From: Peptococcaceae bacterium 1109
GTDB lineage: Bacteria > Bacillota > Limnochordia > Darwinibacteriales > Darwinibacteriaceae
Assembly (NCBI GenBank): GCA_001028815.1
Contig: LDJB01000003.1
Span: forward strand, 110,850-174,849
Direction: 5' to 3'
Length of the DNA stretch: 64,000 nt
Part shown: piece by piece, positions 17,598-31,729 of the stretch
Position numbering within the stretch: the stretch's first letter is position 1
Layout of the letters: each line of letters opens with the position of its first letter
Notes under the pieces: generated by a model
Database searches by the model: none
What the model was told of the DNA's origin: nothing
Seen by the model: only the letters and a program-made list of their open reading frames with translations
Position numbers and translations under genes: made by a program

Positions 17598-17912
17598 TTG
17601 TCCACAGGAGAACTTATCCTCGCTTGGGCAGTCCTGTTCATCTTCACAGCGGCGTACGGCCTTTTGCGCCAGGGGAAACTGTCCCGGCAAGTGGTGGCCG
17701 TGGGCCTAGCTGCAGCTACAATCTTGGTGGCTGTGGGGGCAACCTTCCCTACCGAACCTGTAAGCTGGGGAAAGGTACTGATGCGCTGGGTGGTGCACTT
17801 TTCCCTCTTTACACTGGCCATCAGGGCATTTACCCGTTCCCCATGGCGGGACAGCCTAGGAGCTGGTTTCTTCAGCTCCACCTGCCTCACTCTGCTGCAG
17901 ATTCTCCTTTGA
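17598..17912 (+). CDS. small integral membrane protein (~104 aa, 3 predicted TM helices); immunity-protein-like partner of the upstream peptide
   Basis: TTG at 17598 preceded by AAAGGAG at 17584-17590. Hydrophobic segments LILAWAVLFIFTAAYGLL, VVAVGLAAATILVAVGA and WVVHFSLFTLAIRAF. Its 3' end overlaps the convergent EamA gene by 57 bp. Confidence 0.4.
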   Translation: MSTGELILAWAVLFIFTAAYGLLRQGKLSRQVVAVGLAAATILVAVGATFPTEPVSWGKVLMRWVVHFSLFTLAIRAFTRSPWRDSLGAGFFSSTCLTLLQILL

Positions 17913-18767
17913 CCCCTGCTGGAATATTATGAAGATCCCTGTCAGTATTAGTATTCCTCCCAATACTTCTAGGAATGCTGGAGGTTCCTTAAGGAGAATC
18001 ATGGCAAGTAGGGTGGCCCCAAGGGGTTCCCCCAAAATGCTCACGCTCACCATGGAGGTGGGCAAGTATTTTAAAGCCCAGTTTAGGCTGGTATGGCCAA
18101 TTACAGTAGAAACGAACGCCAAGAGAAACAAGCTCCGCCAAGTGCCAGCAGAGTAACCTGTAAGGGGCTGGCGGAAGACGAGGGCTGCGGCCAAAAGGAA
18201 CAGCGCGCTAAAGCCGTAGGCTGCTGCTCCGTAAAGGCCGACCGGGACAGTGCGCCTTACCACTCTGCCCACGAGGAAGTAGCTTGCGGCCATCACCGCT
18301 CCCCCCAGGGCCATGAGGTTGCCCGCGAGGCGGGAAGCCCCCCCTGCATCCCCTGCGAAAGCCACCACAGCGCTGCCTGTAAGGGCCAGAGCCAAACCAG
18401 CCCAGGTCCGGCCTGTAGGGATTTCTCCCAAGAGCAGGGCCCCGAAGACGGTGACAAACACGGGCTGGGTTGTGACCAGCACTACGGAGCTGGTGACGCT
18501 GGTGTGAAACAAGGACGTGTTCCACAAGGCAAAATGGAGGGCAAGAAAGAAACCCGCGAGAGCCAGTACGCCCCAGGGGATTGGGGTGGACTTCATACTC
18601 CGCAGGTCGTAGGCGGCCCAGGGCACCATCAAAAGCGCGGCAAAAGCCATGCGGTAAAAGGCAATCGCGATGGGATCTGCCTCCGCCTGGCGGATAAAGA
18701 CCGCCGCACCGGAAATGGCCAAAACGCCAAAGATGAGAATGAGGCGTACACTTAAGCGGTTGTTCAC
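17856..18767 (-). CDS. EamA/DMT-superfamily transporter
   Basis: 303 aa, 10 TM-like segments, internal duplication typical of EamA. Confidence 0.8.
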   Translation of the reverse strand: MNNRLSVRLILIFGVLAISGAAVFIRQAEADPIAIAFYRMAFAALLMVPWAAYDLRSMKSTPIPWGVLALAGFFLALHFALWNTSLFHTSVTSSVVLVTTQPVFVTVFGALLLGEIPTGRTWAGLALALTGSAVVAFAGDAGGASRLAGNLMALGGAVMAASYFLVGRVVRRTVPVGLYGAAAYGFSALFLLAAALVFRQPLTGYSAGTWRSLFLLAFVSTVIGHTSLNWALKYLPTSMVSVSILGEPLGATLLAMILLKEPPAFLEVLGGILILTGIFIIFQQGSKENLQQSEAGGAEETSS

Positions 18768-19390
18768 TGCTTGTTCTCCTCTTGCTTGCGCAGATACTCC
18801 CGAAGCATGGCCGTGACCACATCCAAGGCCACGGTGTTAAACCCGCCTTCCGGAACGATCAGATCAGCATATTTCTTCGACGGCTCCACAAAGGCTTCGT
18901 GCATGGGCTTAACCGTGTTCAGATACTGCTTCACCACCGATTCCATGGTGCGGCGCCGCTCTGTCACATCCCGCATCAAACGGCGGAGGATGCGTACATC
19001 TGGGTCGGTGTCAATAAACACTTTGATGTCCAGCTCTGCCCTGAGGGCCGGGTCATGGAGGAGCAAGATCCCTTCAACCAAGATGATGGGATAGGGTTCC
19101 ACTTCCACGAATCGATCGGTGCGGGTGTATTCCTTGAAGTCGTAGACAGGTACCCGCACCTTCTCCCCTGCCTTTAGCCGTTGGAGGTGCTCCACCAAGA
19201 GCGCGTTTTCAAAGGCGTCGGGATGGTCGTAGTTGATCTTCACCCGCTGTGCAAAACTAAGGTGTTCGTTGGCATAATAATACGAGTCCTGGGAAATGAT
19301 CACCGAATCATGCCGAATTGCCCTCTGCAGGGATTGGGCAAAAGTGGTCTTTCCCGAACCCGTCCCACCGGCAATACCTACAATTATCAT
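18764..19390 (-). CDS. udk: uridine kinase
   Basis: MIIVGIAGGTGSGKTTFAQSL P-loop and ILVEGILLLHDPALRAELDIKVFIDTD. True ATG at 19390 (208 aa). The track ORF extending to 19972 is an over-extension. Confidence 0.85.
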   Translation of the reverse strand: MIIVGIAGGTGSGKTTFAQSLQRAIRHDSVIISQDSYYYANEHLSFAQRVKINYDHPDAFENALLVEHLQRLKAGEKVRVPVYDFKEYTRTDRFVEVEPYPIILVEGILLLHDPALRAELDIKVFIDTDPDVRILRRLMRDVTERRRTMESVVKQYLNTVKPMHEAFVEPSKKYADLIVPEGGFNTVALDVVTAMLREYLRKQEENKQ

Positions 19391-19492
19391 CACATGTTCA
19401 CCTGTTCTTATCCGTGTTCTTCTGGGGGATTTGTGTTCTCCATCACTGCAAGGATTTCCTTCCCTTGCGTTGAACAATAATCCAGGAAGGGA

Positions 19493-20008
19493 GTGAATGG
19501 CGTGAAAAAGGCTGTATTTATTATTGCGGAACAAAACTTCCGAGACGAGGAATACCAAGTCCCCAAGGAAGTGCTGGAGAAAAGCGGGATAGAAGTTGTC
19601 ACCGCTTCCACCACCACCGGTGAGTGCGTGGGCAAGCTGGGCATGAAGGTTACCCCTGAGATGCTGGTGAAGGACATTGATCCAGCCCAGTTCGATGCTC
19701 TCATCTTCGTGGGCGGCGGCGGCTCGGAGCAGTACTTTAGCGACAAAACCGCACACGAGCTGGCCCATACAGCATATGATCAGGGGAAGATCGTTGGTGC
19801 CATCTGCATCGCCCCGGTGATCCTCGCCAATGCAGGGCTGCTTAAGGGGCGGACAGCTACCGTGTACCCCGACGGCGCGCCCATCCTCAAAGAGCAGGGA
19901 GCCAACTACACCGGCGGCACCGTGGAAGTGGACGGACGGATCATCACTGGCAACGGGCCAGAGGCGGCCCAAGCCTTCGGCGAAAAGCTAGCCCAGCTCC
20001 TCTCGTAG
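19493..20008 (+). CDS. DJ-1/PfpI-family protein
   Basis: AICIAPVILANAGLL with the nucleophile-elbow Cys, preceded by ALIFVGGGGSEQY. GTG start at 19493 per the track; the in-frame GTG at 19502 has a better-spaced RBS. Confidence 0.8.
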   Translation: MNGVKKAVFIIAEQNFRDEEYQVPKEVLEKSGIEVVTASTTTGECVGKLGMKVTPEMLVKDIDPAQFDALIFVGGGGSEQYFSDKTAHELAHTAYDQGKIVGAICIAPVILANAGLLKGRTATVYPDGAPILKEQGANYTGGTVEVDGRIITGNGPEAAQAFGEKLAQLLS

Positions 20009-20041
20009 TCAAACCCATGCCCCCGGATTCGGGGGCATGCA

Positions 20042-20563
20042 CTATTCTGCGAGGTAACCGCGCCTTTTCAGTTCTGCCAAGATCCTCGCCATGGTGCCTT
20101 CATCAGGGGCCTCAATAGTGTGGAGGTGGAGCCCATCGGTAAGGACCAAGAGGGGCTCTGCCTTTGCTGCCTGCATTTTCCCTACGAACTGCTCCACATC
20201 GGCCATGGTCCGGCATTGGAGGTTGCCGGTCATTTCCCCATAGAGGGGATGTTCCACTGTCACATCAACCACTGCGCCCCCTAGCTCAACCACTACGGCG
20301 AGCTCATCCTTGATTTCCCCCAAATCCTCCGAATGGCGCGCAGCAATGGTCCGCCGCAGGCCGGGCCCCGGCTTTGTTGGATAAAGCAGGTAGCCTTGGG
20401 GCGTGGCCATGATGTTCTCCCCTTGAGCCCGGAGGATTGCAATATCTGCCACCACCACCTGGCGGGTGACGCCAAACTCCTGGCTGAGCTGTGTGCCAGT
20501 TACGGGCTCCTTTGCCTGCTTCAGCACCTTCAGAATCTCTGCACGCCGCTTAGCAGTGCGCAT
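20042..20563 (-). CDS. niaR: NiaR/YrxA-like transcriptional repressor (HTH + 3H domain)
   Basis: 173 aa. N-terminal HTH RRAEILKVLKQAKEPVTGTQLSQEFGVTRQVVVADIAIL and a C-terminal His-containing 3H-type domain (HPLYGEMTG...HLHTIE). Divergent from a small membrane protein, as in niacin regulons. Confidence 0.7.
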   Translation of the reverse strand: MRTAKRRAEILKVLKQAKEPVTGTQLSQEFGVTRQVVVADIAILRAQGENIMATPQGYLLYPTKPGPGLRRTIAARHSEDLGEIKDELAVVVELGGAVVDVTVEHPLYGEMTGNLQCRTMADVEQFVGKMQAAKAEPLLVLTDGLHLHTIEAPDEGTMARILAELKRRGYLAE

Positions 20564-20602
20564 AATTTTCCCTCCACTTTCCCGGCACTTTCTTGCACCT
20601 TA

Positions 20603-20652
20603 ACACCGCTTGGTGTAATATAGTGTATAGTATACAGGTGTATATACAGGTG
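20603..20652. promoter_or_regulatory. candidate NiaR operator region: inverted repeat ACACCgcttGGTGT plus tandem TATACAGGTG-ta-TATACAGGTG
   Basis: Repeats read directly at 20603-20616, 20631-20640 and 20643-20652. ACAGGTG-type half-sites are reminiscent of described NiaR boxes. Confidence 0.4.
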
Positions 20653-20674
20653 CTGCAATACTTTCTGAAAAGGA

Positions 20675-21205
20675 ATGGTGCAAATGCAGAGGCAATCACG
20701 TGTCCGGGAAATGCTTTACGGCGCACTCTTAACAGGAATGGCCATTCTCATCCCTATAGCATTTCGGGGTTGGCTCCAAGTTTACCTGCCGCCCTTTTCC
20801 GCGACCATTGGCAGCCACGTCCCGTCCATGTTGGCTATGGCCATCAGCCCGTGGACCGCGGTCCTGGTGGGGGTAGGCTCAGGATTGGGCTTCCTCATCA
20901 CCCTGGATGCGGTGATCGCCGCCCGGGCCCTCACCCACGCGCTGTTCGGCGCTGCCGGGGCATACCTTATCCGCCGAGGCGTTCCCCTCTGGCAGGCCAT
21001 TCTCATTACCCTGCCCATTCACGCGCTCAGCGAGGCCTTGGTGGTAATGCCCTTCGGCTTTGATCTTTATACATCCTTAGTTGTAGTAGGTGTGGGAACG
21101 GCCCTCCACCACTGCGTAGATGGCCTGATAACCACTGCCCTCTCAGGGGCCCTGGACAAGGCAGGGGTCCCCTTGAGGCTCCAGCCCCGCACCGTAACCC
21201 GCTAA
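20675..21205 (+). CDS. small polytopic membrane protein, putative niacin/vitamin uptake component (NiaX / ECF S-component-like)
   Basis: 176 aa with 5-6 hydrophobic helices. Divergent from niaR and sharing its operator region. Function assigned by synteny only. Confidence 0.4.
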   Translation: MVQMQRQSRVREMLYGALLTGMAILIPIAFRGWLQVYLPPFSATIGSHVPSMLAMAISPWTAVLVGVGSGLGFLITLDAVIAARALTHALFGAAGAYLIRRGVPLWQAILITLPIHALSEALVVMPFGFDLYTSLVVVGVGTALHHCVDGLITTALSGALDKAGVPLRLQPRTVTR

Positions 21206-21241
21206 AAACAAAGCCCAGCTCCTCGAGCTGGGCTTTGTTTT
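21204..21241. terminator. bidirectional Rho-independent terminator
   Basis: AAAAACAAAGCCCAGCTC-ctc-GAGCTGGGCTTTGTTTT: GC-rich 12-bp stem flanked by an A-run and a T-run, exactly between the convergent stops at 21205 and 21240. Confidence 0.65.
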
Positions 21242-22388
21242 ACGCGAGAGCCGCCGTCGCCCGCTGCAGCAGCTCAATAATGGCGAGGTTCTGCGGGCAT
21301 ACCGATTCGCACTGGCCACAGGCGACACATTGATCCGCAGCCTTGTTTCCTTCAACAAGCTGCTTGTAGTGCCATTTCCCCTCTCCCGGCCGGTTGTAGA
21401 TTACGGAGCTGTTCCAGATGGCAAAGACGTCCGGAATCTCCACCCCTTGGGGGCACGGCAAGCAGTAGCGGCAGTCTGTGCACTTCACCATGGTCCGCTC
21501 CAAGAAAAACTCCTGAGCCTTCTTAAACAAGGCCAATTCTTCAGCTGTGAGGGAGTTGGGTGCAGCTTCAGACATGGTAGCAATATTGGCCTTCACCTCA
21601 TCGAGCGTCCCCATACCACTTAGGGCCACCGTCACTTCCGGGAAATTGCACACCCAGCGGAACGCCCAATCAGCGGCAGACCTGCCCGTGCCTGTTTGGT
21701 CCCAAAGGGCTTGGATTTCTGCGGGCATGTTTTTTGCCAGTTTGCCGCCTCGTAGAGGTTCCATGATCACTACCGCGAGCCCCTTTTCCGCGGCATAGCG
21801 GAGGCCTTCTACTCCTGCCTGGTAGTTTTCGTCCATGTAGTTTAACTGAATCTGACAGAAGTTCCAGTCATACGCGTCCACGATTTCCTTGAAAAGGCTG
21901 AGATCATCATGGAAGGAAAAGCCGGCGTACTTAATGCGCCCATCGGCCTTGGCCTGATCCAGGAACTCCAGAACGCTGCACCGCTTCACCGTCTGCCATG
22001 TATCCTTCCCCAAGGCGTGGAGAAGGTACATGTCAATATAGTCTGTCTGCAGCCGGTCCAGCTGTTCGTTTAAGTAAAGGTCGCAGTCTTCCCTGGTGTT
22101 CACCTTCCACACCGGGAGTTTCGTGGCGAGCTTCACCCGCTCCCGATATCCATCCTTGAGGGCAAGACCTAAGAAGACTTCGCTTTTCTCCTCGTGGTAC
22201 GGATATGCGGTGTCGAGATAGTCCACCCCGTTGTCGATGGCATACCGCACCATCTCCACTGCCTTATCGTAGTCGATCTTCCCCACCAGGCTATCAGGGG
22301 CTGGCTCCTCCACCGTAGGCAGGCGCATGCAGCCAAAACCAAGGAGTGATACGTCAAAATCTAGTTTTCCAAACTTCCTTCTCTGCAA
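21240..22388 (-). CDS. aldo/keto reductase with C-terminal 4Fe-4S ferredoxin-type domain
   Basis: AKR motifs (GFGCMRL, DTAYPYH) plus C-terminal CTDCRYCLPCPQG ... CVACGQCESVCP cluster-binding Cys motifs. Confidence 0.85.
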   Translation of the reverse strand: MQRRKFGKLDFDVSLLGFGCMRLPTVEEPAPDSLVGKIDYDKAVEMVRYAIDNGVDYLDTAYPYHEEKSEVFLGLALKDGYRERVKLATKLPVWKVNTREDCDLYLNEQLDRLQTDYIDMYLLHALGKDTWQTVKRCSVLEFLDQAKADGRIKYAGFSFHDDLSLFKEIVDAYDWNFCQIQLNYMDENYQAGVEGLRYAAEKGLAVVIMEPLRGGKLAKNMPAEIQALWDQTGTGRSAADWAFRWVCNFPEVTVALSGMGTLDEVKANIATMSEAAPNSLTAEELALFKKAQEFFLERTMVKCTDCRYCLPCPQGVEIPDVFAIWNSSVIYNRPGEGKWHYKQLVEGNKAADQCVACGQCESVCPQNLAIIELLQRATAALA

Positions 22389-22509
22389 TGTTATGCGCTC
22401 CCTTGTCCATCTAACATGTGTTTCGTTTAATATATTCGCACGTTCTCACAGGATCCCTGCCGCCTTTGCTCCCTAAGAAGCAGGGGATAAGCCCCCTCTC
22501 CTCGAACTA

Positions 22510-23728
22510 ATGTTCTTTGAGGTGAGAGAGATGTTGCTGTCGGTTGTGTTAGGGCTAGTTCTTGGGCTGATTGTGGGAGCCCTTGTTACCTATGCGCTTA
22601 TGGTGAAGCGCACCTCCCGGCTTCAAAGCGAGCTGGAAGTGGTGCGCCAGTTTAAAGAGCTAGATGCTCAGCGCCTTGCTCGGGTGGAAGAAGAGTTTCG
22701 CGATGCTTTCCAGGCCCTGGCGCAGGAGATCTTAGAAGCCAAGGCGGAGAGCTTCTCCCACCACAATGCCCGCCAGCTCCAAGCCATCTTGGAACCCTTG
22801 CGGGATCGCATCCGAGAATTTCAAGCCAAGGTGGAGGAAACCCACACGGAGAGTATGGCGAAAATCCAGTTTTTGGAGCATATTGGCCTGAGTATGTCTC
22901 AGGAGGCGGAGCGCCTTGCGAAAGCCCTTAAGGGGGGAAGTCAAGACCCAGGGAACCTGGGGAGAAGTCATCCTGGAGCGGATCTTAGAGGAGTCGGGCC
23001 TAAGAGAAGGGTACGAATACGTCCTCCAAGGGGAAGGCCTAGACCTGCGCAACCAGCAAGGCAACCGCATCCGCCCAGATGTGGTCATTAGACTTCCCCA
23101 AGGCCGGCATGTGATCGTCGACGCCAAAGTTTCGCTGGTGGCTTACGAACGCTATGTTAACAGCTCTGAGCCCGAGGAACAGGCCAAAGCAGGGGCTGAC
23201 TTAGTGCGGTCCATTAAAGCCCATATTGACGGGCTCCACAGCCGGGCGTACCAGCACCAGCCGGAGATGAACTCCCCTGATTACGTCGTGCTGTTTATGC
23301 CCCTGGAGGGGGCCTTAGCCACTGCCCTCAGCCTTGATCCAGAGCTCACCAGTTATGGGTGGAAGCAGGGCGTGGTCCTTACCACTCCCACCACGCTCAT
23401 GGCGACCTTAGGCATCATCGCCCACCTTTGGCGCCAAGAAAACCAACAGGCACACGCCCTCGAAATTGCCCGCCAGAGCGGCGCCCTGTATGATAAGTTC
23501 GTAGGGTTTGTGGCCTCGTTAGAGGAAGTGGGCAAGCACATCGAGCGCTCCCAAACGGCTTACCAAAAAGCCTATAACCAGCTTAAGACCGGCCGGGGCA
23601 ACCTCATTGCCCGGGCCGAAGGGTTACGGGACATGGGCGCGGCGGCATCAAAACGCCTGCCGGATGGCCTAGTTGAAGCGGCTCTCGATGGTGACAGCAT
23701 GCATTCCCCTGTTGAAGCAGAGGTATAG
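22510..23728 (+). pseudogene. rmuC: DNA recombination protein RmuC, split by a +1 frameshift in a G6 run (22932-22937)
   Basis: The track gives two overlapping ORFs (22510..23091 and 22916..23728). Frame 1 ends ...AKALKGG; frame 2 continues EVKTQGTWGEVILERILE, the conserved RmuC block. Removing one G restores ALKGEVKTQGTWGEV in one frame. Confidence 0.75.
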
Positions 23729-23772
23729 TAGGGATAACAAGAGACCCAGCCCAGAAAGGACCGGGACGTAAT

Positions 23773-24360
23773 TTGAACAGAGCCAGTACGATTATCCAGA
23801 ACGTGATCGACGATATCCAAACCCCCATTACATTCGGGGAGTTCATGGCAAAACTGCAGGACAAAGGGTTTGCGCTGTTAATCATCGCGGCATCCTTGGT
23901 GGTCCTCATCCCCACCCCGCCAGGCCTTAACTTCTTCTCAGGGCTCTTCGTGCTGGTGTGGGCTGTGCAGCGGGTTCTAGGAAAGCAAACTCCCTGGATG
24001 CCACGGTTTGTGAGGAACAAAGAAGTATCCCCAGAGTTCCTCCGGTTTATCCGGGACAAGGGGGTGCCGTACCTCGTCAAACTAGAACGGTTCTTGCCCA
24101 AGACAAGCGCTGCCAGTATGGCCAATCCCTTTGAGACGAAAGCGGCCTCTGTGATCCTCTTGGCCATGGCCGTCTTGACGGTCATGCCCACACCGTTCCT
24201 TAATACCATCCCCGCCGCGGTGATTACCCTTGTGGGCCTAGGAATGCTCAACGGCAATCGCTATATTATCTGGACCAGCTTCTTCGCGGGGCTGGTGGCC
24301 AGTGCCATCATCGTGAACGTCCTTTGGTTCAGCACCGACTTCCTGCTGGGGCTGTTCTAG
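23773..24360 (+). CDS. exoD: exopolysaccharide synthesis ExoD-family membrane protein
   Basis: 195 aa. FALLIIAASLVVLIPTPPGLNFFSGLFVLVWAVQ is typical of ExoD. Confidence 0.7.
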   Translation: MNRASTIIQNVIDDIQTPITFGEFMAKLQDKGFALLIIAASLVVLIPTPPGLNFFSGLFVLVWAVQRVLGKQTPWMPRFVRNKEVSPEFLRFIRDKGVPYLVKLERFLPKTSAASMANPFETKAASVILLAMAVLTVMPTPFLNTIPAAVITLVGLGMLNGNRYIIWTSFFAGLVASAIIVNVLWFSTDFLLGLF

Positions 24361-24362
24361 CC

Positions 24363-25058
24363 CTAGATGTTGGGGATCTGCCAGTCAACTTCCTCCATCC
24401 CCTGTGCCTTGAGAAAAGCATTGGCCTGGGAAAAATGCCTACAGCCGAAAAAGCCCCTGAACGCAGAGAGAGGGCTGGGATGGGCCGCGGTGAGCACCAA
24501 GTGGCGGCGATTGGTCAAAAGGCGCTCCTTGGCCTTGGCAGGATTGCCCCACAGCATGAATACCATCGGCTCTGGCCTCTCATTCAGACGCTGGATCACG
24601 CTATCGGTAAACTGCTCCCACCCTTTCCCGCGGTGGGACCCTGCCTGCCCTGCCCGCACCGTGAGGCTGGCATTGAGGAGCAGCACCCCCTGCTTCGCCC
24701 AGGGGATGAGGCAGCCGTTGTTCGGAGTATAACAGCCCAGGTCATCCTGGAGCTCCTTGAAGATGTTTACTAATGAACGTGGAATGGGTACCCCTGGCTT
24801 AACGGAAAAAGCCAGCCCGTGGGCTTGTCCCGGGCCATGGTATGGATCTTGCCCTAAGATAACCACCTTGATCTGAGAATAGGATGCAAGCTTTAGCGCC
24901 TCAAAGATCTCGTACATATCCGGGTAGATTGTCCGGATATAGTATTCCCGCTTGAGAAACTCCCGCAGGTTAAGGTAGTACGGCTGGCGGAATTCGTCGG
25001 CAAGCAGTTCATCCCACTCATTCCCTAAGTTAACCATTCGGCCATCACCACAAATCAC
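24363..25058 (-). CDS. ung: uracil-DNA glycosylase, family 1
   Basis: VVILGQDPYHGPGQAHGLAFSV and LLLNASLTVRAGQAGSH motifs. Start overlaps the upstream ORF by 4 bp. Its stop lies 2 bp from the convergent exoD stop. Confidence 0.9.
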   Translation of the reverse strand: MICGDGRMVNLGNEWDELLADEFRQPYYLNLREFLKREYYIRTIYPDMYEIFEALKLASYSQIKVVILGQDPYHGPGQAHGLAFSVKPGVPIPRSLVNIFKELQDDLGCYTPNNGCLIPWAKQGVLLLNASLTVRAGQAGSHRGKGWEQFTDSVIQRLNERPEPMVFMLWGNPAKAKERLLTNRRHLVLTAAHPSPLSAFRGFFGCRHFSQANAFLKAQGMEEVDWQIPNI

Positions 25059-27280
25059 CGTTTTTCCAAGAAATCCATGAGCGTTTGGTAAATGTCCCCG
25101 GTCCCCGCCTCGCCATTACTGAGGATGGTAACCTCTTGCTCCAGGGCTGGGATCACGCTTGTCACCATGCTGGATCCAGGCCCTGTGCCCCACACTGTGT
25201 AGGACGTTAAGCCGTTCCTAGTCCTGCTGGCAAAGGGCCGCAGAACTTCTGGCAAAACCGCCTCTGAGACCAAATCTCCGCCCAGCAATGCCCACCAGAA
25301 CCTATGCAGATCGTCCGCGGTGGTATACGCTCCGCCGCTTGGCCCCCCTTGCAGGGGAACAGCCAGTATGTTTTCCACCCACTCAGAGCCTGAGGACAGA
25401 TACCCCACCGCAGTGCCTTCTGGCAGTTGATTGAGAAGATAGTAGCCTGTGCTTGCCATTCCCACTGGAGTGAAAATGCGGGCCGCTGCAAACGCGGCAA
25501 AAGGCTCTTCCGCATGTGCTTCCACAATCCGCCCCACAAGTTCCAGGCGCTGCTCAAGGCCTTCCCCATCGGAGAAGAGCTCCGCTATGGTAAGGTCCCT
25601 TGCCCAAGGAGGAAGCCCATCCCTTAAGCAGCACAGGGCTGGGGTGTTAAATGTAAACTTCCCTTCATCGGCCAGGAGTGCTGCGGCCACCGCAGTGAAA
25701 ATCCGGCTCCCCGAGGCCATGTTAAAGCGAGTATTGGACGTGTTGGGCACTGCAAACCTCCGGCTCGCGAAGCCGTAGGTTCCGGAGAAGATTTGCTCTT
25801 GGCCTTCCCACACCTTGATCACACCGGCAAAGGCTGGGTCGATCTGGGCTTCGCTAAAGCCCGCCACCCCCAGGCGTTCCACCGTATTTGGGCTGAGCTC
25901 AAACACTTCGTCAAGGCGCGGGACAATCGTCCTCAACCCCAGCTTGTCTGTAATGTCCTGGGCAAATTCCCGGGCCACTGACTTCTCCCCATGGACTACA
26001 AAGACTCTTTTCACGTCTTTGAACTCACCCAACCAGCCCATGAGGGCCTCCCGGTCGCCGTGCGCGGAAAACCCGGTGATGGTATGGATTTTTGCCCGCA
26101 CCCGCACCTGCTCTCCGTGGATACGGACCTCCTTCGCTCCATCTTGCAGCTGCCTTCCTAAGGTCCCTTCAGCTTGGTAGCCGATGAGGAGCACCGCTGC
26201 CTCGGGACGCCAAAGGTTGTGCCTGAGATGGTGCTTGATGCGTCCCGCATCGCACATTCCGCTGGCAGAAATGATAATAGCTCCGCCCCGGATATCATTG
26301 AGGCGCTTAGAGTCTTCCACGCTTTGGGTGTAGTGCAGCCCCGCAAACTCGAAGGGTGAACGGCCTTCCTCAAGCATAGTGCGGGTTTCGAAGTCAAAGA
26401 AGGCCTGGTGCTTTCGGAAGATCTCCGTGGCCGAGGTGGCTAGGGGGCTATCCACATAAACCTTCACAGGGGGGATTTCCCCTACATCTAACAGCTTCCG
26501 CAGTTCATGGAGGAGGTCCTGGGTGCGGCCTAAGGCGAAGGCGGGGATCAAAAGGTTCCCACCTCTGGCCATGGTCTCCCGCACAACCTCTGCCAGGCGC
26601 TCTCGGCGGTTTTCCCGGTCTTGGTGCAGGCGAGTACCGTAGGTGGACTCTACAATCACATAATCCGCATCTTGAAGGAAGGTGGGATCCTGGACGATGG
26701 GCTGATCGAGGTTTCCCATATCCCCAGAGAACACTAACTTCACCGTGCCCCCCTCTTCAGTGACCCACACTTCCACCAAGGCCGCACCGAGGATATGGCC
26801 TGCATCCCGCATGCGGATGGCCAGGCCAGGGAGGATTTCCACCCTCTCATCGTAGACCATGGGCCGGAACTGCGCTAGAGTCTTGTCCGCATCTGCCTTC
26901 GTGTAGATGGGCTCTAGAAGGGGCTTGCCCTGCCTGCTTAAGCGGCGGTTCTTCCGCTCAACCTCCGCTTCTTGGATGTAGGCAGAATCAGGCAGCATGA
27001 TCGTGCACAAGTCCGCGGTAGCATCCGTTGCATAAATAGGCCCGGAAAACCCGTGCTTGACGAGCTTGGGCAGAAGGCCGCTGTGATCAATGTGGGCATG
27101 GGTTAAGATCACCGCATCGATTTCTAGCGGGTTAAACGGAAAGCTGCCGTAGTTGCGCTCCTTCAGTTCCCGGGGCCCATGGAACATCCCACAGTCCACC
27201 AACACCTGATAAATCCCGAACCGCAGCAGAAAACAGGAACCGCTCACTGTCTCTGCCGCGCCTAAGAACTCCAGCTGCAC
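25055..27280 (-). CDS. beta-CASP metallo-beta-lactamase-fold ribonuclease (N-terminal ~470 aa) fused to a C-terminal degenerate serine-beta-lactamase-like domain (~270 aa)
   Basis: N-terminal part: ILTHAHIDHSGLLP (HxHxDH) and a beta-CASP layout ending GFSAHGD. C-terminal part aligns to class-C beta-lactamase/PBP-like proteins, but SxxK is SGSR and the KTG box is WGTG. One continuous 741-aa frame. Confidence 0.7.
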   Translation of the reverse strand: MQLEFLGAAETVSGSCFLLRFGIYQVLVDCGMFHGPRELKERNYGSFPFNPLEIDAVILTHAHIDHSGLLPKLVKHGFSGPIYATDATADLCTIMLPDSAYIQEAEVERKNRRLSRQGKPLLEPIYTKADADKTLAQFRPMVYDERVEILPGLAIRMRDAGHILGAALVEVWVTEEGGTVKLVFSGDMGNLDQPIVQDPTFLQDADYVIVESTYGTRLHQDRENRRERLAEVVRETMARGGNLLIPAFALGRTQDLLHELRKLLDVGEIPPVKVYVDSPLATSATEIFRKHQAFFDFETRTMLEEGRSPFEFAGLHYTQSVEDSKRLNDIRGGAIIISASGMCDAGRIKHHLRHNLWRPEAAVLLIGYQAEGTLGRQLQDGAKEVRIHGEQVRVRAKIHTITGFSAHGDREALMGWLGEFKDVKRVFVVHGEKSVAREFAQDITDKLGLRTIVPRLDEVFELSPNTVERLGVAGFSEAQIDPAFAGVIKVWEGQEQIFSGTYGFASRRFAVPNTSNTRFNMASGSRIFTAVAAALLADEGKFTFNTPALCCLRDGLPPWARDLTIAELFSDGEGLEQRLELVGRIVEAHAEEPFAAFAAARIFTPVGMASTGYYLLNQLPEGTAVGYLSSGSEWVENILAVPLQGGPSGGAYTTADDLHRFWWALLGGDLVSEAVLPEVLRPFASRTRNGLTSYTVWGTGPGSSMVTSVIPALEQEVTILSNGEAGTGDIYQTLMDFLEKR

Positions 27281-27353
27281 CCCAACACCTTCTTTATCTA
27301 AGTGTTAAGTAATGGTTCGACCCCCGACAGTGGGATTCCTGTTGTAAAAACCC

Positions 27354-29117
27354 TTATTTCGCTAACGCTTCCTTGAGTGCAAAGGCAAGAAAGCCTGCAC
27401 AGGTCGCAAAGGCTGCCCCGGTCATGCATTCCCCCGTCTCCTCGTGGACGCTTTCGCAGGCGATACCATTATCCAGCTCGGTCCTGCTGAGGTGGCGAAG
27501 GGCTTGCTCCGTGTTGCCGCTCAAGAGGCTGTTGCAGATGGACAACACCCATGGGTGGGGCGCATGCGCACAGCCGATTTCCGCGATGGGCTTGCCCGCG
27601 AAGGAGTACTTGTACTCCGGATCGCGAATCACCGCCACTGTGTTCCGATAGATCTCATCGTAAGCGCTGCAGAACCCATACCACGGCAGAAGCAAGAGGC
27701 TCCCCGGAGGTTCGTCGTAGATGTCCCACGCCCCCTCCAGATCAACTGACCAAGCGAAGACCTTCTTTCCATTGTACACCTTCACGCACTGCTGGTAGAT
27801 GGCATCCTTCACTCGCTGGGCTTCTTCGAGCAGGGGGAGGCCGTAGAGTTCCTGCAGGTCGGTGAGGATCCGCCACACCAAGACGTTATCGTAGGTGAGG
27901 TACTTGTAGGTGTGCATATCGTCGGTGGGCTGGAGGAAGGTTTCGTAAAGGTGGGTTCCTGGGTGCCTCTTAGTCTTAAGGATCCTGAGGATGCGCTCCA
28001 CTCCCCTGCGCACATGGGCCTCCTCCAAAATGATGCGATCCCCCGTCCTGTCCACATAGCGCTTCAAAGCGATAATGGGGGCACACAGCTCATCCAGCTC
28101 AAATCCAGGTTCCAGCACCGTTCCATCAATAAACCTACTGTGAATCCCCACGTTCTTGATCTGCCTGGTAAATGTGTAGTCAAGCATTTCCCTAGCATAC
28201 TCTGGGTCCGCCATCAAGATGGCAGGAAAGCTCCACAGCAAGCTGTCCCGGTCCCAGTAGGCTGCGGAAACGTAGTAGCGGGGGCTCCTGGAGGTAACTA
28301 GGCAGAATTCTTCTGTATCCAAGGTAATGCCTGAGCCAAAGAAGAAGCTAAAGAACATATTGAGATTGAGGAGCTCCTGGAGGTGCTCATGGCCAACCCT
28401 TTGGATGCGCTGGGCCAGCCAGCGCTGGGTCTTGGCATACTCCTCTGCCCATCCCTGGCGAAGCATCTCTTTTGCAGCCGTGCTGGCAGCTACTTCTTCG
28501 TACCCCACACCCCAGTACACATCCAAGGTGGCCTCCTCGCCTGGAGCTAGATGGACCGTGCGGGTGATCTCAAACCGGATGCTGTCGTCCTGGCCGTGGC
28601 TGTACTTCCACTCTGCCTTCTCTGCCATGGGTGCCAGGGAAAACAGGGGAAGCCCGGTGCGAAAATCCATGACGAAGGCGTGGTTCCAACCGCTTGCGTA
28701 GGCGTGCTTTTCACCTTTAACAGGCTTGTTTTCATTCACTGCGTGCCAAACTTCCCCAAAACACCCCTCAAAGCCCAAGCAGACCTCCACAGGGTCACAA
28801 GCCCTCGCTGTTAAGCGGTAGATAAAGCCCCGCTCGCCTAAGGGTGCTAAGATGCACCCTTCGAAGGCGACGCCCTGGCCAGGCCCGGAGAAGCGTGGAA
28901 TCCAGTATTGGTCCCTATCCCAGTTGAGTTCAGCAAAATCCACAGGCTGGCCGTCCACCGCGGCCATGGGCCTGAGGAGGGGTTCCTCCCCCGCTCCCTT
29001 CACATGCAGCATACCCTTGGCCCGCATGTGGAGGAAGGTGAGCCCCTCAAGAGCGCCATCCTCCCTGATGGTTGGCAGGGAGATAAACTCGTTGCTCGTT
29101 ACGTAATACTTGGTCAT
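27354..29117 (-). CDS. (alpha/alpha)6-barrel glycoside hydrolase, GH15-like (glucoamylase/trehalase/GH125-type WxRDS fold)
   Basis: 587 aa with an N-terminal beta-rich region followed by AAYWDRDSLLW (WxRDS motif of GH15-type six-hairpin glycosidases). Start overlaps the GH31 gene by 4 bp. Family assignment is tentative. Confidence 0.45.
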   Translation of the reverse strand: MTKYYVTSNEFISLPTIREDGALEGLTFLHMRAKGMLHVKGAGEEPLLRPMAAVDGQPVDFAELNWDRDQYWIPRFSGPGQGVAFEGCILAPLGERGFIYRLTARACDPVEVCLGFEGCFGEVWHAVNENKPVKGEKHAYASGWNHAFVMDFRTGLPLFSLAPMAEKAEWKYSHGQDDSIRFEITRTVHLAPGEEATLDVYWGVGYEEVAASTAAKEMLRQGWAEEYAKTQRWLAQRIQRVGHEHLQELLNLNMFFSFFFGSGITLDTEEFCLVTSRSPRYYVSAAYWDRDSLLWSFPAILMADPEYAREMLDYTFTRQIKNVGIHSRFIDGTVLEPGFELDELCAPIIALKRYVDRTGDRIILEEAHVRRGVERILRILKTKRHPGTHLYETFLQPTDDMHTYKYLTYDNVLVWRILTDLQELYGLPLLEEAQRVKDAIYQQCVKVYNGKKVFAWSVDLEGAWDIYDEPPGSLLLLPWYGFCSAYDEIYRNTVAVIRDPEYKYSFAGKPIAEIGCAHAPHPWVLSICNSLLSGNTEQALRHLSRTELDNGIACESVHEETGECMTGAAFATCAGFLAFALKEALAK

Positions 29118-31729
29118 TTTCTTTCCTCCACTCTCATGAGCGTGCCTGCAAGGCCTCTGCCACAGAGCTGCACCGCATCGCCTGGAGTGAGAGCATCCAC
29201 CACCAGGACTTCCTTCACCGGCCCTGTACCTCTCACCGTGCCCCCATTGTATTCTAAGTCATTGCCTAGATCGTCTTGGAACCCCAGGGCATCGCCCCCA
29301 AAGCACAGGAAGGCCAAGATTTCGTACCCATCTAGCTTGTTGGATACGCCGCCCTGAGGCGAGCAGGCCCCCATGATGCGGGCTTTGTTTAGGTGGACAG
29401 GCAAGACTGCTCCGTCACGCACAAACAGGGGGACTTGGTGAAGTGGGCAGGTATAGTCGATCTCCCTTCCTCCGGTGAACACTTCTCCGGTGAAGAAATC
29501 GTGCCACGTGCCCTGGGGAAGGTACACCCGCCGCCCTTCTGCCCCTTCCTCCAGCACAGGGGCGACTAGCAGATCCCTGCCGAACATGTACTGGTCGTGC
29601 ACGGTCCATGCCCGGGAGTCCTCGGGGTAATCGATGGCTAGGTGAGCCATGAGGGGCCGAGCGGACTGGGCGCAGTGGACTGCTTCCTGGTAGATATATG
29701 GGAGGAGGTTCATGCGCAGGTTGGCAAAGAGCCGGTACACCTCCATGACTTCTGGATCGTTATACAGATCAGCAATGTTCCACGGGCTGCGGTCGTTGAC
29801 CCACCGGGCACGGTCGGTGTAGAAGAACTGGCCGCTCCGGGGCTCTGCGTGCCACTGCATCACAGGGCTGAGCGCGGCGAAGGCGGTGGAGCGCTTGTAA
29901 AGCTCGGGGCTGGGGAAATCCCCCGCGAATCCGGCCATATCAAAGCTCCAGAAGGGGATGCCGGACAGGCCTGCGGAAAGGCCAGCTGTCATCTGAGCCC
30001 GCAGTTCACTCCATGTGCTTCTCTGGTCCCCTGCCCAATGGATGGGCACGGTTTGGGCCCCTGTATGGCCTGCCCGGGAGAAGGTGATGCCGTCCTCTAG
30101 GTGCTCCCGGAGAAAGCCGTGGTAAGCCCTAATGTACTGCATGGGGTACTCATTGTGGGCAGTGTCCCCTAATTGGCCGTCGTACGTTTTTGTGGTATCG
30201 CCAAAGAGGAACTCTCCCCCGTCGGTCTTAAAACCCTTTACCCCTAGGTCTTTCACAAGGTAGGCTCGCTTATCAAACCACCACTTAACCGCCTCAGGAT
30301 TGGTAAAATCCAGGAGCAAACTGCCCTTAAACCAATTCTCTGGGATGCGGTAAGGAGTGCCGTCTTCGTTTAGAACGCAGTATCCCATCTTGATGGCATA
30401 GGCCTCATCGTCTTGAAGCTGCTGGCACGCATCGGGGGTGTACTTAATCACAGGGATCTGCCATAAAACAAGGTTTAAGCCCGCCTTTCGCACCGCCTCA
30501 GCCATGAGTTTGGGATCGGGCCACTTCCCACCTTCAGGGAAGTTGAAATCTGCCAAGCGGATGGGCCGATCTTGGGGAAGGGGCTCATACTGGGCATCGT
30601 TGAAGATGTAGAAGGTATGTTCATCGCTCCATGCCTCGAGCACCATGGCAGTGGCAGGCAGTTCATATTGCTCTAGGGCCTTAAGCTGCTCTAAGGTTTC
30701 TTCTTGAGTGTTCCAGCCGTTCGCGGAGATCCAAAGCCCTAAAGCCCACTTCGGGGGAAGCACAGCTTTGCCTGTGAGGCGGTGTAGATCTTTTAGCAGG
30801 GACTGGGGGCTGCCGAAAAGCCACCATTCCTCATACAGCACACCTTGGGGGGCGGTGCGGCACTCTAGGGTAAGCCCTGAGGCCCCATGGTAGGTGATCA
30901 AGCGCTTACTGCTGGAATACCAACCGAAGCCCAGGTCTGTAAGGAAAAATGGGATGGGGATGTAGCTGTACTCTCCTTGGCTGGTGAACTTCTCCACAAC
31001 CGAAAGGACAGTGCTGAGGCCCTTTTGGTCCACTTGGTTGAAGCGCTCCCCTAGCCCGAAGATGTGCCTGACAGGGGTTTGTACGTGGTACTTAATCTCC
31101 CGCACCGACCCGTCTTTAGCGCACAAGAGCTCTAGCTCCGCAAAATCCACCTGCACAAGTGCTGCGCCTTCCCGCCGTACTTCCCATCCTGCACCGGTAA
31201 TCTCCAGGGTCTCTGCAGGGGAAAGCTGAACCTTCACTGACTCCACAGCTTCCCCTGGCGCTGCCCCATCCTTTTCCAATACCCGAATGCGAAGGCCGTT
31301 ATCCCAGCTGAACTCCACAGCTGTTTCGGGGAAAATAGCCCAAGCGCTGTTCTCTCCCTGGTACAACAGGGCAGGCGCGCTAAGCCCCCTGCGCTCGACG
31401 ACGGAGAAGTTGTAATACGGAGTGACTTCCACCTCAGTACTGCCTTCCACAGAAAAGCGGTAGCTCACATCTGCCAACTCGTGAAAGGGCCCCAGGGAGA
31501 AAGAGAAGTAGTGGGAATCCTGGGCGGCCCCTTGGAAAGCCTCCCCCGGGACGGGGGGCATGGGGCTGCCGTCCTGTCTCCACTCAAGGACAGCCCGCAC
31601 TGGGCTCTCCGCCCCTTCTACCTTAATTTGGACTACTACCTCTTCACCTTTTAGGGGCATGTAGGGCCTGCGCTGAAAGGCGCAGTCCTGGATGGGTTCT
31701 AGCCCAGGGGGTACGTGCTTGATCTGCAT
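29114..31729 (-). CDS. glycoside hydrolase family 31 (alpha-glucosidase / alpha-xylosidase-like)
   Basis: 871 aa. GVKGFKTDGGEF (GH31 nucleophile region, compare GxDGxWxDMNE) and IPFWSFDMAGF (GH31 acid/base region). Confidence 0.7.
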   Translation of the reverse strand: MQIKHVPPGLEPIQDCAFQRRPYMPLKGEEVVVQIKVEGAESPVRAVLEWRQDGSPMPPVPGEAFQGAAQDSHYFSFSLGPFHELADVSYRFSVEGSTEVEVTPYYNFSVVERRGLSAPALLYQGENSAWAIFPETAVEFSWDNGLRIRVLEKDGAAPGEAVESVKVQLSPAETLEITGAGWEVRREGAALVQVDFAELELLCAKDGSVREIKYHVQTPVRHIFGLGERFNQVDQKGLSTVLSVVEKFTSQGEYSYIPIPFFLTDLGFGWYSSSKRLITYHGASGLTLECRTAPQGVLYEEWWLFGSPQSLLKDLHRLTGKAVLPPKWALGLWISANGWNTQEETLEQLKALEQYELPATAMVLEAWSDEHTFYIFNDAQYEPLPQDRPIRLADFNFPEGGKWPDPKLMAEAVRKAGLNLVLWQIPVIKYTPDACQQLQDDEAYAIKMGYCVLNEDGTPYRIPENWFKGSLLLDFTNPEAVKWWFDKRAYLVKDLGVKGFKTDGGEFLFGDTTKTYDGQLGDTAHNEYPMQYIRAYHGFLREHLEDGITFSRAGHTGAQTVPIHWAGDQRSTWSELRAQMTAGLSAGLSGIPFWSFDMAGFAGDFPSPELYKRSTAFAALSPVMQWHAEPRSGQFFYTDRARWVNDRSPWNIADLYNDPEVMEVYRLFANLRMNLLPYIYQEAVHCAQSARPLMAHLAIDYPEDSRAWTVHDQYMFGRDLLVAPVLEEGAEGRRVYLPQGTWHDFFTGEVFTGGREIDYTCPLHQVPLFVRDGAVLPVHLNKARIMGACSPQGGVSNKLDGYEILAFLCFGGDALGFQDDLGNDLEYNGGTVRGTGPVKEVLVVDALTPGDAVQLCGRGLAGTLMRVEERK

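What the first reader, a model, noticed from the sequence alone, without database searches (positions are those of the whole stretch)
25055..27280. Fusion of a beta-CASP metallo-beta-lactamase RNase with a catalytically degenerate serine-beta-lactamase-fold domain, translationally coupled to ung
One uninterrupted 741-aa frame joins an N-terminal beta-CASP nuclease domain (HAHIDHSG plus GFSAHGD, similar to Thermus-type CPSF-like RNases) to a C-terminal domain that aligns to class-C beta-lactamase/PBP-like proteins. The nucleophile motif SxxK has become SGSR and the KTG box has become WGTG, so the second domain is probably a binding or regulatory module. The gene overlaps uracil-DNA glycosylase by 4 bp, hinting at a nucleic-acid repair or processing role. 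Both beta-lactamase folds (metallo and serine) in one polypeptide is an architecture I do not recognise.
Basis: partly seen in the sequence, partly recalled or inferred. Interest (0 to 1): 0.6.

Follow-up and report, generated by a model that had tools for sequence, protein, structure and literature searches.

The report
RNase fused to dead PBP-like domain
A real gene, conserved in one group of uncultured Bacillota (several records are named Limnochordia), joins an intact metal-dependent RNA-cutting enzyme to a shrunken, catalytically dead copy of the penicillin-binding-protein fold; it is a new accessory-domain variant of a known RNase family, not a new kind of system.

Summary
The 741-aa ORF (25055-27280, minus strand) is real. 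The identical protein occurs in several independent assemblies. 45 protein clusters (51-84% identical, 705-766 aa) share the architecture and form one clade.

[quoted passage not shown] Its closest solved relative is Thermus TTHA0252. All seven catalytic motifs are invariant, including the RNA-type His in motif C.

Residues 484-741 fold with high predicted confidence as a serine beta-lactamase/PBP domain derived from a leaderless 3TG9-like family. The SxxK lysine is lost in 45/45 members. The segment carrying YxN is deleted (45-85 residues). Box 3 reads V-W-G. The domain is acidic and under purifying selection, and mostly fold-core residues are conserved. It stands where non-fused sister proteins carry a ~60-aa helical tail.

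My best reading is an active RNase with a non-catalytic docking or assembly module.

ung follows on the same strand in all seven fused lineages and in none of 83 non-fused loci. However, it belongs to a larger syntenic block, and the 4-bp overlap depends on an unlikely GTG start (ATG at 25037 is likelier, leaving a 17-nt gap).

This is a new variant of a known kind, of moderate interest.

The parts
25055..27280 (-). Whole fusion gene, 741 aa, GTG start, TGA stop
   Evidence: ORF list. It is identical to HHT73645.1 / MGI6639946.1 and to full-length copies in JGI, Logan and ENA assemblies.
27286..27292 (-). Shine-Dalgarno-like GAAGGTG, 5 nt before the GTG start
   Evidence: Read directly from the sequence. 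The N-terminus MQLEFLGAAE matches the start of the homologues.
26684..27247 (-). Metallo-beta-lactamase core (residues 12-199), with motif 1 D29, motif 2 H61-x-H63-x-D65-H66 (27083-27100), motif 3 H162 and motif 4 D187
   Evidence: Pfam Lactamase_B E 4.5e-12. All of these residues are invariant in 25 family members. They align with TTHA0252.
26147..26524 (-). Beta-CASP insertion domain (residues 253-378). Motif A, E211, lies just upstream of it.
   Evidence: Pfam PF10996, 137.9 bits against a cutoff of 27.7.
25919..26107 (-). RMMBL 'RNA specificity' segment (residues 392-454), with motif B H407 (26060-26062) and motif C H430 (25991-25993)
   Evidence: Pfam PF07521 E 8.7e-18. H407 and H430 are invariant.
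25832..25894 (-). Inter-domain linker (residues 463-483)
   Evidence: In the full-length AF2 model residues 471-478 have pLDDT below 50, and pTM is 0.62 against 0.92 for the C-domain alone. The linker is variable in the family alignment.
25058..25831 (-). Degenerate serine-beta-lactamase/PBP-fold domain (residues 484-741)
   Evidence: PF00144 84.8 bits. phmmer against 3tg9 gives E 1e-30. The AF2 model has pLDDT 93.8, and the Foldseek top hit is 3tg9 with TM 0.83 and E 7e-21.
25703..25714 (-). Remnant of SxxK: S523-G-S-R526
   Evidence: The Lys column holds 0 Lys in 45 fused proteins (E, Q, H, R, N, D). The Ser is kept in 37/45. All 13 free-standing relatives keep S and K.
25553..25564 (-). Deletion junction (around G574/L575) where the YxN-bearing segment of the all-alpha subdomain is missing
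   Evidence: 53 residues separate the Lys column from the next core helix here, against 101-104 in the 3tg9-like relatives. Other fused members have 19-30.
25187..25195 (-). Remnant of box 3 (K/H-T/S-G): V696-W697-G698
   Evidence: Column counts in alignment A2.
24363..25037 (-). ung (family-1 uracil-DNA glycosylase), probable ATG start at 25037, SD sequence GGTGAT at 25044-25049. The alternative GTG at 25058 would overlap the fusion gene by 4 nt.
   Evidence: NCBIfam uracil-DNA glycosylase equivalog, 327 bits, with the alignment starting at ORF residue 9. Sequence read. Orthologue N-termini. The adjacency is present in 7/7 fused lineages.

Best explanation
The gene encodes a cytoplasmic zinc-dependent beta-CASP ribonuclease of the TTHA0252 / CPSF73-like subfamily, expected to be a 5'-3' exonuclease with some endonuclease activity. 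In one bacterial clade its usual short helical C-terminal tail was replaced, in a single event, by a leaderless 3TG9-like penicillin-binding-protein/beta-lactamase-fold domain. That domain then lost its catalytic lysine and the whole YxN wall of the active site, and it shrank from about 330 to 245-280 residues. It is kept by selection as a folded, acidic, non-catalytic module on a flexible linker.

The most likely role of this module is the one that C-terminal domains play in other beta-CASP nucleases: self-association or docking to a partner, which sets where and on what the RNase acts. It is unlikely to perform chemistry or to bind RNA generically. The gene is probably co-transcribed with ung.

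Shown here: the architecture, intact RNase motifs, dead hydrolase motifs, the predicted fold, purifying selection, a single origin, and the conserved ung neighbour. Inferred: RNase activity (by homology to TTHA0252), the docking or assembly role, and co-transcription.
For: - N-domain: Pfam Beta-Casp, RMMBL and Lactamase_B all score above threshold. The best solved relative is RNase TTHA0252, E 6e-86 over residues 5-434.
- MBL motifs 1-4 and beta-CASP motifs A, B and C (D29, H61/H63/D65/H66, H162, D187, E211, H407, H430) are invariant in 25 members.
- TTHA0252 degrades RNA 5'-3' and its disruption changes global mRNA levels (PMC4229858).
- C-domain: 3tg9 gives E 1e-30 by sequence. The AF2 model has pLDDT 93.8 and pTM 0.92. 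The Foldseek top hits are 3tg9, R61 DD-peptidase, ClbP and class C enzymes, all with probability 1.00.
- Lys is 0/45, the YxN segment is absent in 44/45, and box 3 is hydrophobic.
- Most columns conserved in at least 40 of 45 fused proteins are also conserved in intact relatives, so they are probably fold-core residues. Only a few are fused-specific: E636, Y694, P701 and N722-G-E724.
- In the closest pair, C-domain pN is 0.17 against pS 0.74, which indicates purifying selection. Its non-synonymous divergence is about 2-3 times that of the N-domain.
- The mean net charge of the C-domain is -8.5 and its mean pI is 5.3.
- The 45 fused proteins are monophyletic against 70 non-fused proteins on an N-domain neighbour-joining tree.
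- Non-fused orthologues carry a ~60-85-aa helix-like tail at the same position.
- The linker has low confidence in the full-length model.
- ung follows on the same strand at -23 to +117 nt in 7/7 fused lineages.
Against: - No activity, oligomeric state or binding partner has been measured for any member.
- The docking or assembly role is argued only by analogy and by exclusion.
- The nucleophile Ser is still present in 37/45 members, and an Arg sits at +2 or +3 from it in most, so a residual ligand-binding pocket is not excluded.
- Synonymous sites are saturated in every pair, so dN/dS values are only qualitative.
- I had no model coordinates and therefore could not map conservation onto a surface.
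- No promoter or terminator evidence bears on co-transcription.
Confidence: 0.7

Rival explanations
1. The pseudo-PBP domain is a small-molecule sensor. What remains of the old substrate groove would bind a D-amino-acid, peptide or muropeptide-like metabolite and switch the RNase allosterically.
For: The Ser of SxxK is retained in 37/45 members, with a nearby Arg at +2 (35/45) or +3 (6/45). The domain is under purifying selection. PF00144 proteins are ligand-binding enzymes by ancestry.
Against: One whole wall of the pocket (the YxN segment, 45-85 residues) is deleted, and the size of the deletion differs between subclades (19-58 residues remain). Most conserved columns are shared with intact relatives, which fits fold-core residues rather than a new pocket. 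The C-domain is only about 30% identical between subclades, which is hard to reconcile with a fixed ligand.
Confidence: 0.15
2. The protein works with Ung in DNA repair or nucleic-acid clean-up. The acidic pseudo-PBP domain would dock Ung, or the nuclease would process abasic or uracil-containing strands. The fusion and the operon would then be two parts of one innovation.
For: ung is directly downstream on the same strand in 10/10 fused loci (7 lineages) and in 0/83 non-fused loci within the flanks held (4-5 kb where the contig allows). True overlaps of 10 and 23 nt occur in two lineages. RmuC is also nearby. The C-domain is acidic.
Against: Motif C is His and the RMMBL domain is present. By the established classification of beta-CASP families (recalled, not checked here), these mark RNA-acting members, while SNM1/Artemis have Val. 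The adjacency lies inside a longer syntenic block of unrelated genes shared by the whole clade, so it is a single inherited event. Spacing is not conserved, and in this window the overlap is doubtful.
Confidence: 0.1
3. The C-terminal domain is a decaying relic with no function of its own, carried along because it is harmless.
For: It evolves 2-3 times faster than the N-domain and has shrunk progressively: 279 aa in the window's subclade against 243-259 aa in most others. In the table, 9 of the 45 fused clusters have no PF00144 hit on record.
Against: No member of the 45 clusters has lost the domain or acquired stops within it. pN is far below pS. AF2 predicts a compact, very confident fold. 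Fold-core residues are invariant over sequences only about 30% identical.
Confidence: 0.04
4. The continuous frame is an assembly or indel artefact that joins two separate genes.
For: A few cluster members are split or short, for example P0297 plus P0298 on one ENA contig, and P0046-P0049.
Against: The identical 741-aa sequence is recorded from NCBI and ENA. Four further full-length 741-aa variants in the same 90% cluster come from JGI, Logan and ENA contigs. The fusion is in frame in 45 clusters down to 51% identity, some of them seen on 165-270 contigs. Six other loci translate through the junction.
Confidence: 0.01

Closest known systems
Thermus thermophilus TTHA0252 (PDB 2dkf/3iek), a bacterial CPSF73-like beta-CASP RNase
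   Same: The MBL + beta-CASP + RMMBL core aligns over residues 5-434 at E 6e-86, with all catalytic motifs shared. [quoted passage not shown]
   Different: TTHA0252 is 431 aa and has no C-terminal domain. The window protein also has a ~25-residue helical insertion (about residues 100-124, EVERKNRR...) that TTHA0252 lacks, plus the 280-aa linker and pseudo-PBP domain.
Non-fused orthologues in other Bacillota/Clostridia (e.g. Desulfofundulus kuznetsovii, Calderihabitans, Moorella; 515-548 aa)
   Same: They are 52-58% identical over residues 1-460 to 1-490, with the same insertion and motifs. They are the sister group in the N-domain tree.
   Different: They end in a ~60-85-aa helix-like tail with no Pfam hit instead of a PF00144 domain, and they are not next to ung.
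PDB 3TG9 'penicillin-binding protein' of Bacillus halodurans and its 335-355-aa leaderless relatives (PF00144, MEROPS S12-type fold)
   Same: This is the best sequence match (E 1e-30) and the best structural match (TM 0.83) of the C-domain. The two share fold-core residues. The relatives are too short to carry a signal peptide.
   Different: The relatives keep SxxK and YxN and are about 330 aa. The fused domain has lost Lys, the YxN segment and about 12 residues before box 3. To my knowledge no function has been described for the 3TG9 family itself.
Beta-CASP nucleases with C-terminal recruitment domains: Cas14 (type VII CRISPR), CPSF73/INTS11, RNase J
   Same: The design is the same: a conserved MBL/beta-CASP nuclease followed by a variable C-terminal domain. 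From published work on these systems (recalled, not tested here), that domain mediates dimerisation or docking to a complex. The Cas14 model is the best NCBIfam hit for residues 1-480, and the Cas14 structure 8yhd matches at E 4e-56.
   Different: The Cas14 score is 415 against a cutoff of 800, and the Cas14 C-terminal part (profile positions 455-612) is not matched. There is no PADLOC hit and no repeat array within 10-40 kb. None of these families uses a PBP-fold domain.

Membership tests
Beta-CASP ribonucleases (MBL superfamily; CPSF73 / TTHA0252-like) | MBL motifs 1-4: Asp, HxHxDH, His, Asp | tested here: met
   D29, H61-A-H63-I-D65-H66, H162 and D187 are all invariant in alignment A1 and align with TTHA0252.
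Beta-CASP ribonucleases (MBL superfamily; CPSF73 / TTHA0252-like) | Beta-CASP insertion domain with motifs A (Asp/Glu), B (His) and C (His in RNA-acting members, Val in the SNM1/Artemis DNA nucleases) | tested here: met
   PF10996 scores 137.9 bits against a cutoff of 27.7, and PF07521 RMMBL scores 64.5 against 21.6. E211, H407 and H430 are invariant. The His/Val rule is established knowledge recalled from the original description of the family; it was not checked here.
Beta-CASP ribonucleases (MBL superfamily; CPSF73 / TTHA0252-like) | Metal-dependent RNA cleavage | not testable with these tools
   Inferred from homology to TTHA0252.
Serine beta-lactamase / PBP / DD-peptidase family (PF00144, class C type) | Homology and fold | tested here: met
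   PF00144 scores 84.8 bits against a cutoff of 27. 3tg9 gives E 1e-30. The AF2 model has pLDDT 93.8, and Foldseek assigns probability 1.00 to 3tg9, R61, ClbP and AmpC-type structures. The fold is predicted, not solved.
Serine beta-lactamase / PBP / DD-peptidase family (PF00144, class C type) | SxxK: nucleophile Ser and general-base Lys | tested here: not met
   The window reads S-G-S-R. Lys is 0/45 in the fused family and Ser is 37/45. Relatives are 13/13 for S and K.
Serine beta-lactamase / PBP / DD-peptidase family (PF00144, class C type) | YxN (Tyr150-type) motif | tested here: not met
   The segment is deleted: a gap in 44/45 fused proteins, with 53 residues instead of 101-104 between the flanking elements in the window protein.
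Serine beta-lactamase / PBP / DD-peptidase family (PF00144, class C type) | K/H-T/S-G box on strand beta3 | tested here: not met
   The aligned positions are V696-W697-G698. The fused family has I/V/M/L at the K/H position. The closest intact relatives read L-E-G.
Cas14 (type VII CRISPR-Cas effector nuclease) | NCBIfam NF045584 equivalog score, Cas14 C-terminal domain, and a cas7/cas5/CRISPR neighbourhood | tested here: not met
   The score is 415 bits against a cutoff of 800, and only profile positions 1-454 of 612 are matched. No PADLOC model matches. There are no tandem repeats at 10-40 kb. The neighbours are ung, glycoside hydrolases and RmuC.
RNase J | TIGR00649 / RNase J models | tested here: not met
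   17 bits against a cutoff of 400.
Archaeal aCPSF1 / FttA | TIGR03675 score and N-terminal KH domains | tested here: not met
   302 bits against a cutoff of 580. The match covers only profile positions 177-629, so the KH region is absent.

The most novel reading that the evidence does not exclude
The dead PBP-fold domain is a purpose-built docking surface that physically couples RNA decay to another process. The most concrete candidates are Ung, its conserved operon partner (with the acidic domain occupying a nucleic-acid-binding surface), or a cell-wall-precursor-like ligand. Either would make this a pseudoenzyme-regulated RNase with no described counterpart.
Probability: 0.1. Interest if true: 0.6.

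Novelty: new variant of a known kind. Interest (0 to 1): 0.4.

Why it matters
Beta-CASP nucleases get their biological specificity from accessory domains: KH domains in aCPSF1, C-terminal domains in CPSF73/INTS11, RNase J and Cas14. Here a bacterial lineage recruited a very different scaffold for that position, a penicillin-binding-protein fold stripped of its chemistry.

This is a clean natural example of pseudoenzyme birth. The intact 3TG9-like family is the likely source, and two stages of reduction are visible among the fused proteins.

It also carries a practical annotation warning. The protein is labelled 'serine hydrolase' in some records and plain 'MBL fold metallo-hydrolase' in others. 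Neither label is accurate.

It does not open a long-standing question. These organisms appear here only as metagenome-assembled sequences, so any function would have to be worked out with recombinant protein.

Tried and rejected
- The genome-contig scan with the full-length alignment was swamped by non-fused beta-CASP genes. The patterns chosen came from the N-domain.
- dN/dS could not be quantified because synonymous sites are saturated (pS at least 0.61 in all pairs). Only the pN versus pS contrast is usable.
- The promoter and terminator scans gave nothing above the shuffled background.
- Four literature searches found no description of the architecture.
- The exhaustive representative search with the C-domain (collected) listed free-standing and tandem PF00144 proteins but no other beta-CASP fusion. 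The 700-1165-aa hits I checked are tandem PF00144 proteins. The short single-stretch hits (P0165, P0175, P0214) keep SxxK and are not members.
- Oddly, neither that search nor the word-index search with the C-domain returned full-length fused family members. The count of 45 clusters therefore rests.
- A defence-system reading (Cas14, Apyc1) was rejected.
- A generic RNA-binding role for the C-domain was rejected because the domain is acidic.
- There is no second copy of either domain in the window.
Full report
**1. The observation**

The ORF list shows one open frame at 25055..27280 on the minus strand, 741 aa, with a GTG start. GAAGGTG lies 5 nt upstream of it. Base composition across the gene and its flanks is even, at GC 0.54-0.63.

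Pfam places Lactamase_B (residues 12-199), Beta-Casp (253-378, 137.9 bits), RMMBL (392-454, 64.5 bits) and PF00144 Beta-lactamase (84.8 bits, two stretches) on the one polypeptide. The downstream ORF is a family-1 uracil-DNA glycosylase, scoring 327 bits against the NCBIfam equivalog.

**2. The fusion is real**

The identical 741-aa sequence is recorded from NCBI and ENA (HHT73645.1, MGI6639946.1). Four further full-length 741-aa variants in the same 90% cluster come from JGI, Logan and ENA contigs.

Forty-five clusters (at 90% identity) of 705-766 aa carry the same architecture at 51-84% identity. Some were seen on 165-270 contigs. Where named, they come from Bacillota or Limnochordia MAGs. 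Six other loci translate straight through the junction. A few split or short versions exist on single contigs and look like local assembly errors or contig ends.

On a neighbour-joining tree of the N-domain, the 45 fused proteins form one bipartition against 70 non-fused relatives. The window's N-domain is at least 66% identical to every fused member and at most 58% identical to any non-fused one. This points to a single fusion event followed by vertical inheritance.

**3. The N-terminal domain**

- The best solved relative is RNase TTHA0252 of Thermus thermophilus, at E 6e-86 over residues 5-434. Archaeal aCPSF1, Cas14, CPSF73 and INTS11 follow.
- MBL motifs 1-4 (D29; H61, H63, D65, H66; H162; D187) and beta-CASP motifs A-C (E211, H407, H430) are invariant in the family alignment.
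- By the established classification of the family (recalled, not checked here), a His in motif C together with the RMMBL segment marks RNA-acting members.
- TTHA0252 has 5'-3' exo-RNase activity, is non-essential, and shapes global mRNA levels (PMC4229858).
- The top NCBIfam hit is the Cas14 model, but at 415 bits against a cutoff of 800 and without the Cas14 C-terminal part. There is no PADLOC hit and no repeat array nearby. This is shared ancestry, not membership.
- The same core family is widespread in bacteria at 44-57% identity.

**4. The C-terminal domain**

- By sequence its best solved relative is 3TG9, a 356-aa 'penicillin-binding protein' from Bacillus halodurans, at E 1e-30. That match comes in two blocks separated by a large gap in the query.
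- With a 58-sequence alignment, AlphaFold2 gives pLDDT 93.8 and pTM 0.92 for residues 463-741.
- Foldseek returns 3tg9 (E 7e-21, TM 0.83), followed by R61 DD-peptidase, ClbP, D-amino-acid amidase, DltE, FmtA and class C beta-lactamases, all with probability 1.00.
- The fold assignment is therefore sound, though it rests on a prediction.

**5. Catalytic machinery**

I aligned the 45 fused proteins with 13 free-standing relatives.

| Feature | Fused (45) | Free-standing relatives |
|---|---|---|
| SxxK Ser | 37 keep it (others T, L, P) | all 13 keep it |
| SxxK Lys | 0 keep it (E, Q, H, R, N, D) | all 13 keep it |
| YxN segment | gap in 44 | Tyr in all 13 |
| Residues between Lys column and next core helix | 19-58 (53 in the window protein) | 101-104 in the nine 3TG9-like relatives, 93-95 in the other four |
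| Box 3 | I/V/M/L at the K/H position | L-E-G in the nearest relatives, H-G-G in the more distant four |

- About 12 further residues are missing before box 3 in the fused proteins.
- The domain cannot be a serine hydrolase.
- The window's subclade (279-284 aa) is less reduced than most others (243-259 aa), so the reduction happened in steps.

**6. The C-domain is maintained by selection**

- In the closest pair (window versus L092) non-synonymous divergence in the C-domain is 0.17 against 0.74 synonymous. In the N-domain the figures are 0.085 and 0.62. Synonymous sites are saturated, so the contrast is only qualitative.
- Of the 41 columns conserved in at least 40 of 45 fused proteins, 22 are also conserved in the intact relatives. 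Examples are G486, G503, F528, P620, A624, G626, Y627, N637, D657, W662, G698 and G702. I read these as fold-core positions.
- The clearest fused-specific positions are E636, Y694, P701 and N722-G723-E724.
- The domain is acidic, with mean charge -8.5 and pI 5.3, which argues against generic RNA binding.
- In the full-length model both domains fold, but the linker (residues 471-478) falls below pLDDT 50 and pTM drops to 0.62. The model therefore gives no confident relative placement of the two domains.
- Non-fused sister proteins (515-548 aa) carry a ~60-85-aa helix-like tail with no Pfam hit at exactly this position.
- The exhaustive representative search with the C-domain found only free-standing or tandem PF00144 proteins and no other architecture carrying the degenerate form.

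**7. Context**

- ung follows on the same strand in all seven fused lineages examined: the window, L001, L004, L011, L066, L092 and L093.
- It is found in none of the 83 non-fused loci, within the flanks held (4-5 kb where the contig allows).
- Spacing varies: overlaps of 23 and 10 nt in L004 and L001, and gaps of 29, 37, about 35 and 117 nt elsewhere.
- In the window, the GTG at 25058 would give the 4-nt overlap. Three points favour ATG 25037 and a 17-nt gap:
  - The ung profile alignment starts at ORF residue 9.
  - Orthologous Ung proteins start at MV(N/T)LGN(E/D)W.
  - ATG 25037 has a GGTGAT SD sequence 6 nt upstream.
- Beyond ung, the order RmuC, aldo-keto reductase/4Fe-4S, a ~175-aa protein, HTH_11/3H, PRK and EamA is conserved across the clade, while the upstream side varies.
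- The pair is therefore probably co-transcribed. The linkage is a single inherited event inside a syntenic block, which makes it weak evidence for a shared function.

**8. Interpretation**

The best-supported reading is an active TTHA0252-type RNase whose helical tail was replaced once by a leaderless 3TG9-like PBP-fold domain. That domain was then reduced to a non-catalytic scaffold. By analogy with the C-terminal domains of RNase J, CPSF73/INTS11 and Cas14 (recalled from published work, not tested here), I think self-association or partner docking is its most likely role.

I rate the descriptive core as very likely and the specific role at roughly 40%. The rivals, in order:

- A ligand sensor. 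This is possible, because Ser and a nearby Arg persist.
- A functional partnership with Ung in DNA metabolism. The RNA-type motifs and the block synteny argue against it.
- A functionless relic. Purifying selection argues against it.
- An assembly artefact. This is excluded.

**9. Novelty**

Four searches of the held literature found no description of a beta-CASP-PF00144 fusion. The proteins are in public databases under generic names.

It is a new accessory-domain variant of a known nuclease family and a tidy case of pseudoenzyme formation. It is restricted to one clade seen here only in metagenome assemblies. I score interest at 0.4.

Noticed in passing
window 22510-23728 (+): RmuC is split over two overlapping frames: 22510-23091 (193 aa, RmuC profile positions 2-70) and 22916-23728 (270 aa, profile positions 58-290). 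The orthologue in L092 is one intact 395-aa gene. This points to a frameshift (pseudogene or assembly error) somewhere in 22916-23091.
   Followed up: partly
P0092, P0054, P0051, P0072 (loci L007, L009): Non-fused orthologues of the RNase in other Bacillota/Clostridia end in a ~60-85-aa helix-rich, coiled-coil-looking tail with no Pfam hit, at the position taken by the PBP-like domain in the fused clade. Its function is unknown.
   Followed up: partly
P0121-P0129, PDB 3tg9: The leaderless 335-355-aa 3TG9-like PF00144 family keeps SxxK and YxN, but its box 3 reads L-E-G-x-D instead of K/H-T/S-G. It is an uncharacterised subfamily with an unusual third motif.
   Followed up: no
window 17856-25058; L001, L004, L092, L093: A block of about 8 kb (ung, RmuC, aldo-keto reductase with a 4Fe-4S domain, a ~175-aa protein with no Pfam hit, HTH_11/3H regulator, PRK-family kinase, EamA transporter) keeps its order across proteins only 53-55% identical. 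An ExoD gene is inserted in the window and in L093, and a subtilase in L093.
   Followed up: partly
window 18764-19972 (-): This ORF is listed as 402 aa, but the PRK domain covers only residues 197-381. Orthologues are 204-218 aa and are followed by a separate STIV_B116-like gene. Either the start is over-extended or two genes are merged here.
   Followed up: no
window 27354-31729 (-): Upstream of the fusion gene lie a GH125-like protein (587 aa, weak partial hit) and a GH31 glycosidase (871 aa). In relatives this side instead holds GH94/aldose epimerase, shikimate-pathway or ABC-transporter genes, so the fusion gene sits at a synteny breakpoint.
   Followed up: partly
P0141, P0152, P0154, P0162, P0170, P0181, P0201, P0233: There are many 700-1165-aa proteins with two PF00144 domains in tandem, some with ORF_12_N or DUF3471. 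They are related to the same 3TG9-like group. None contains a beta-CASP domain.
   Followed up: partly
P0049 (688 aa), P0046, P0047; P0297 + P0298: Several database entries of this family are truncated, frameshifted, or fused to the upstream aldose-epimerase gene. They look like assembly or gene-calling artefacts and could mislead architecture counts.
   Followed up: no
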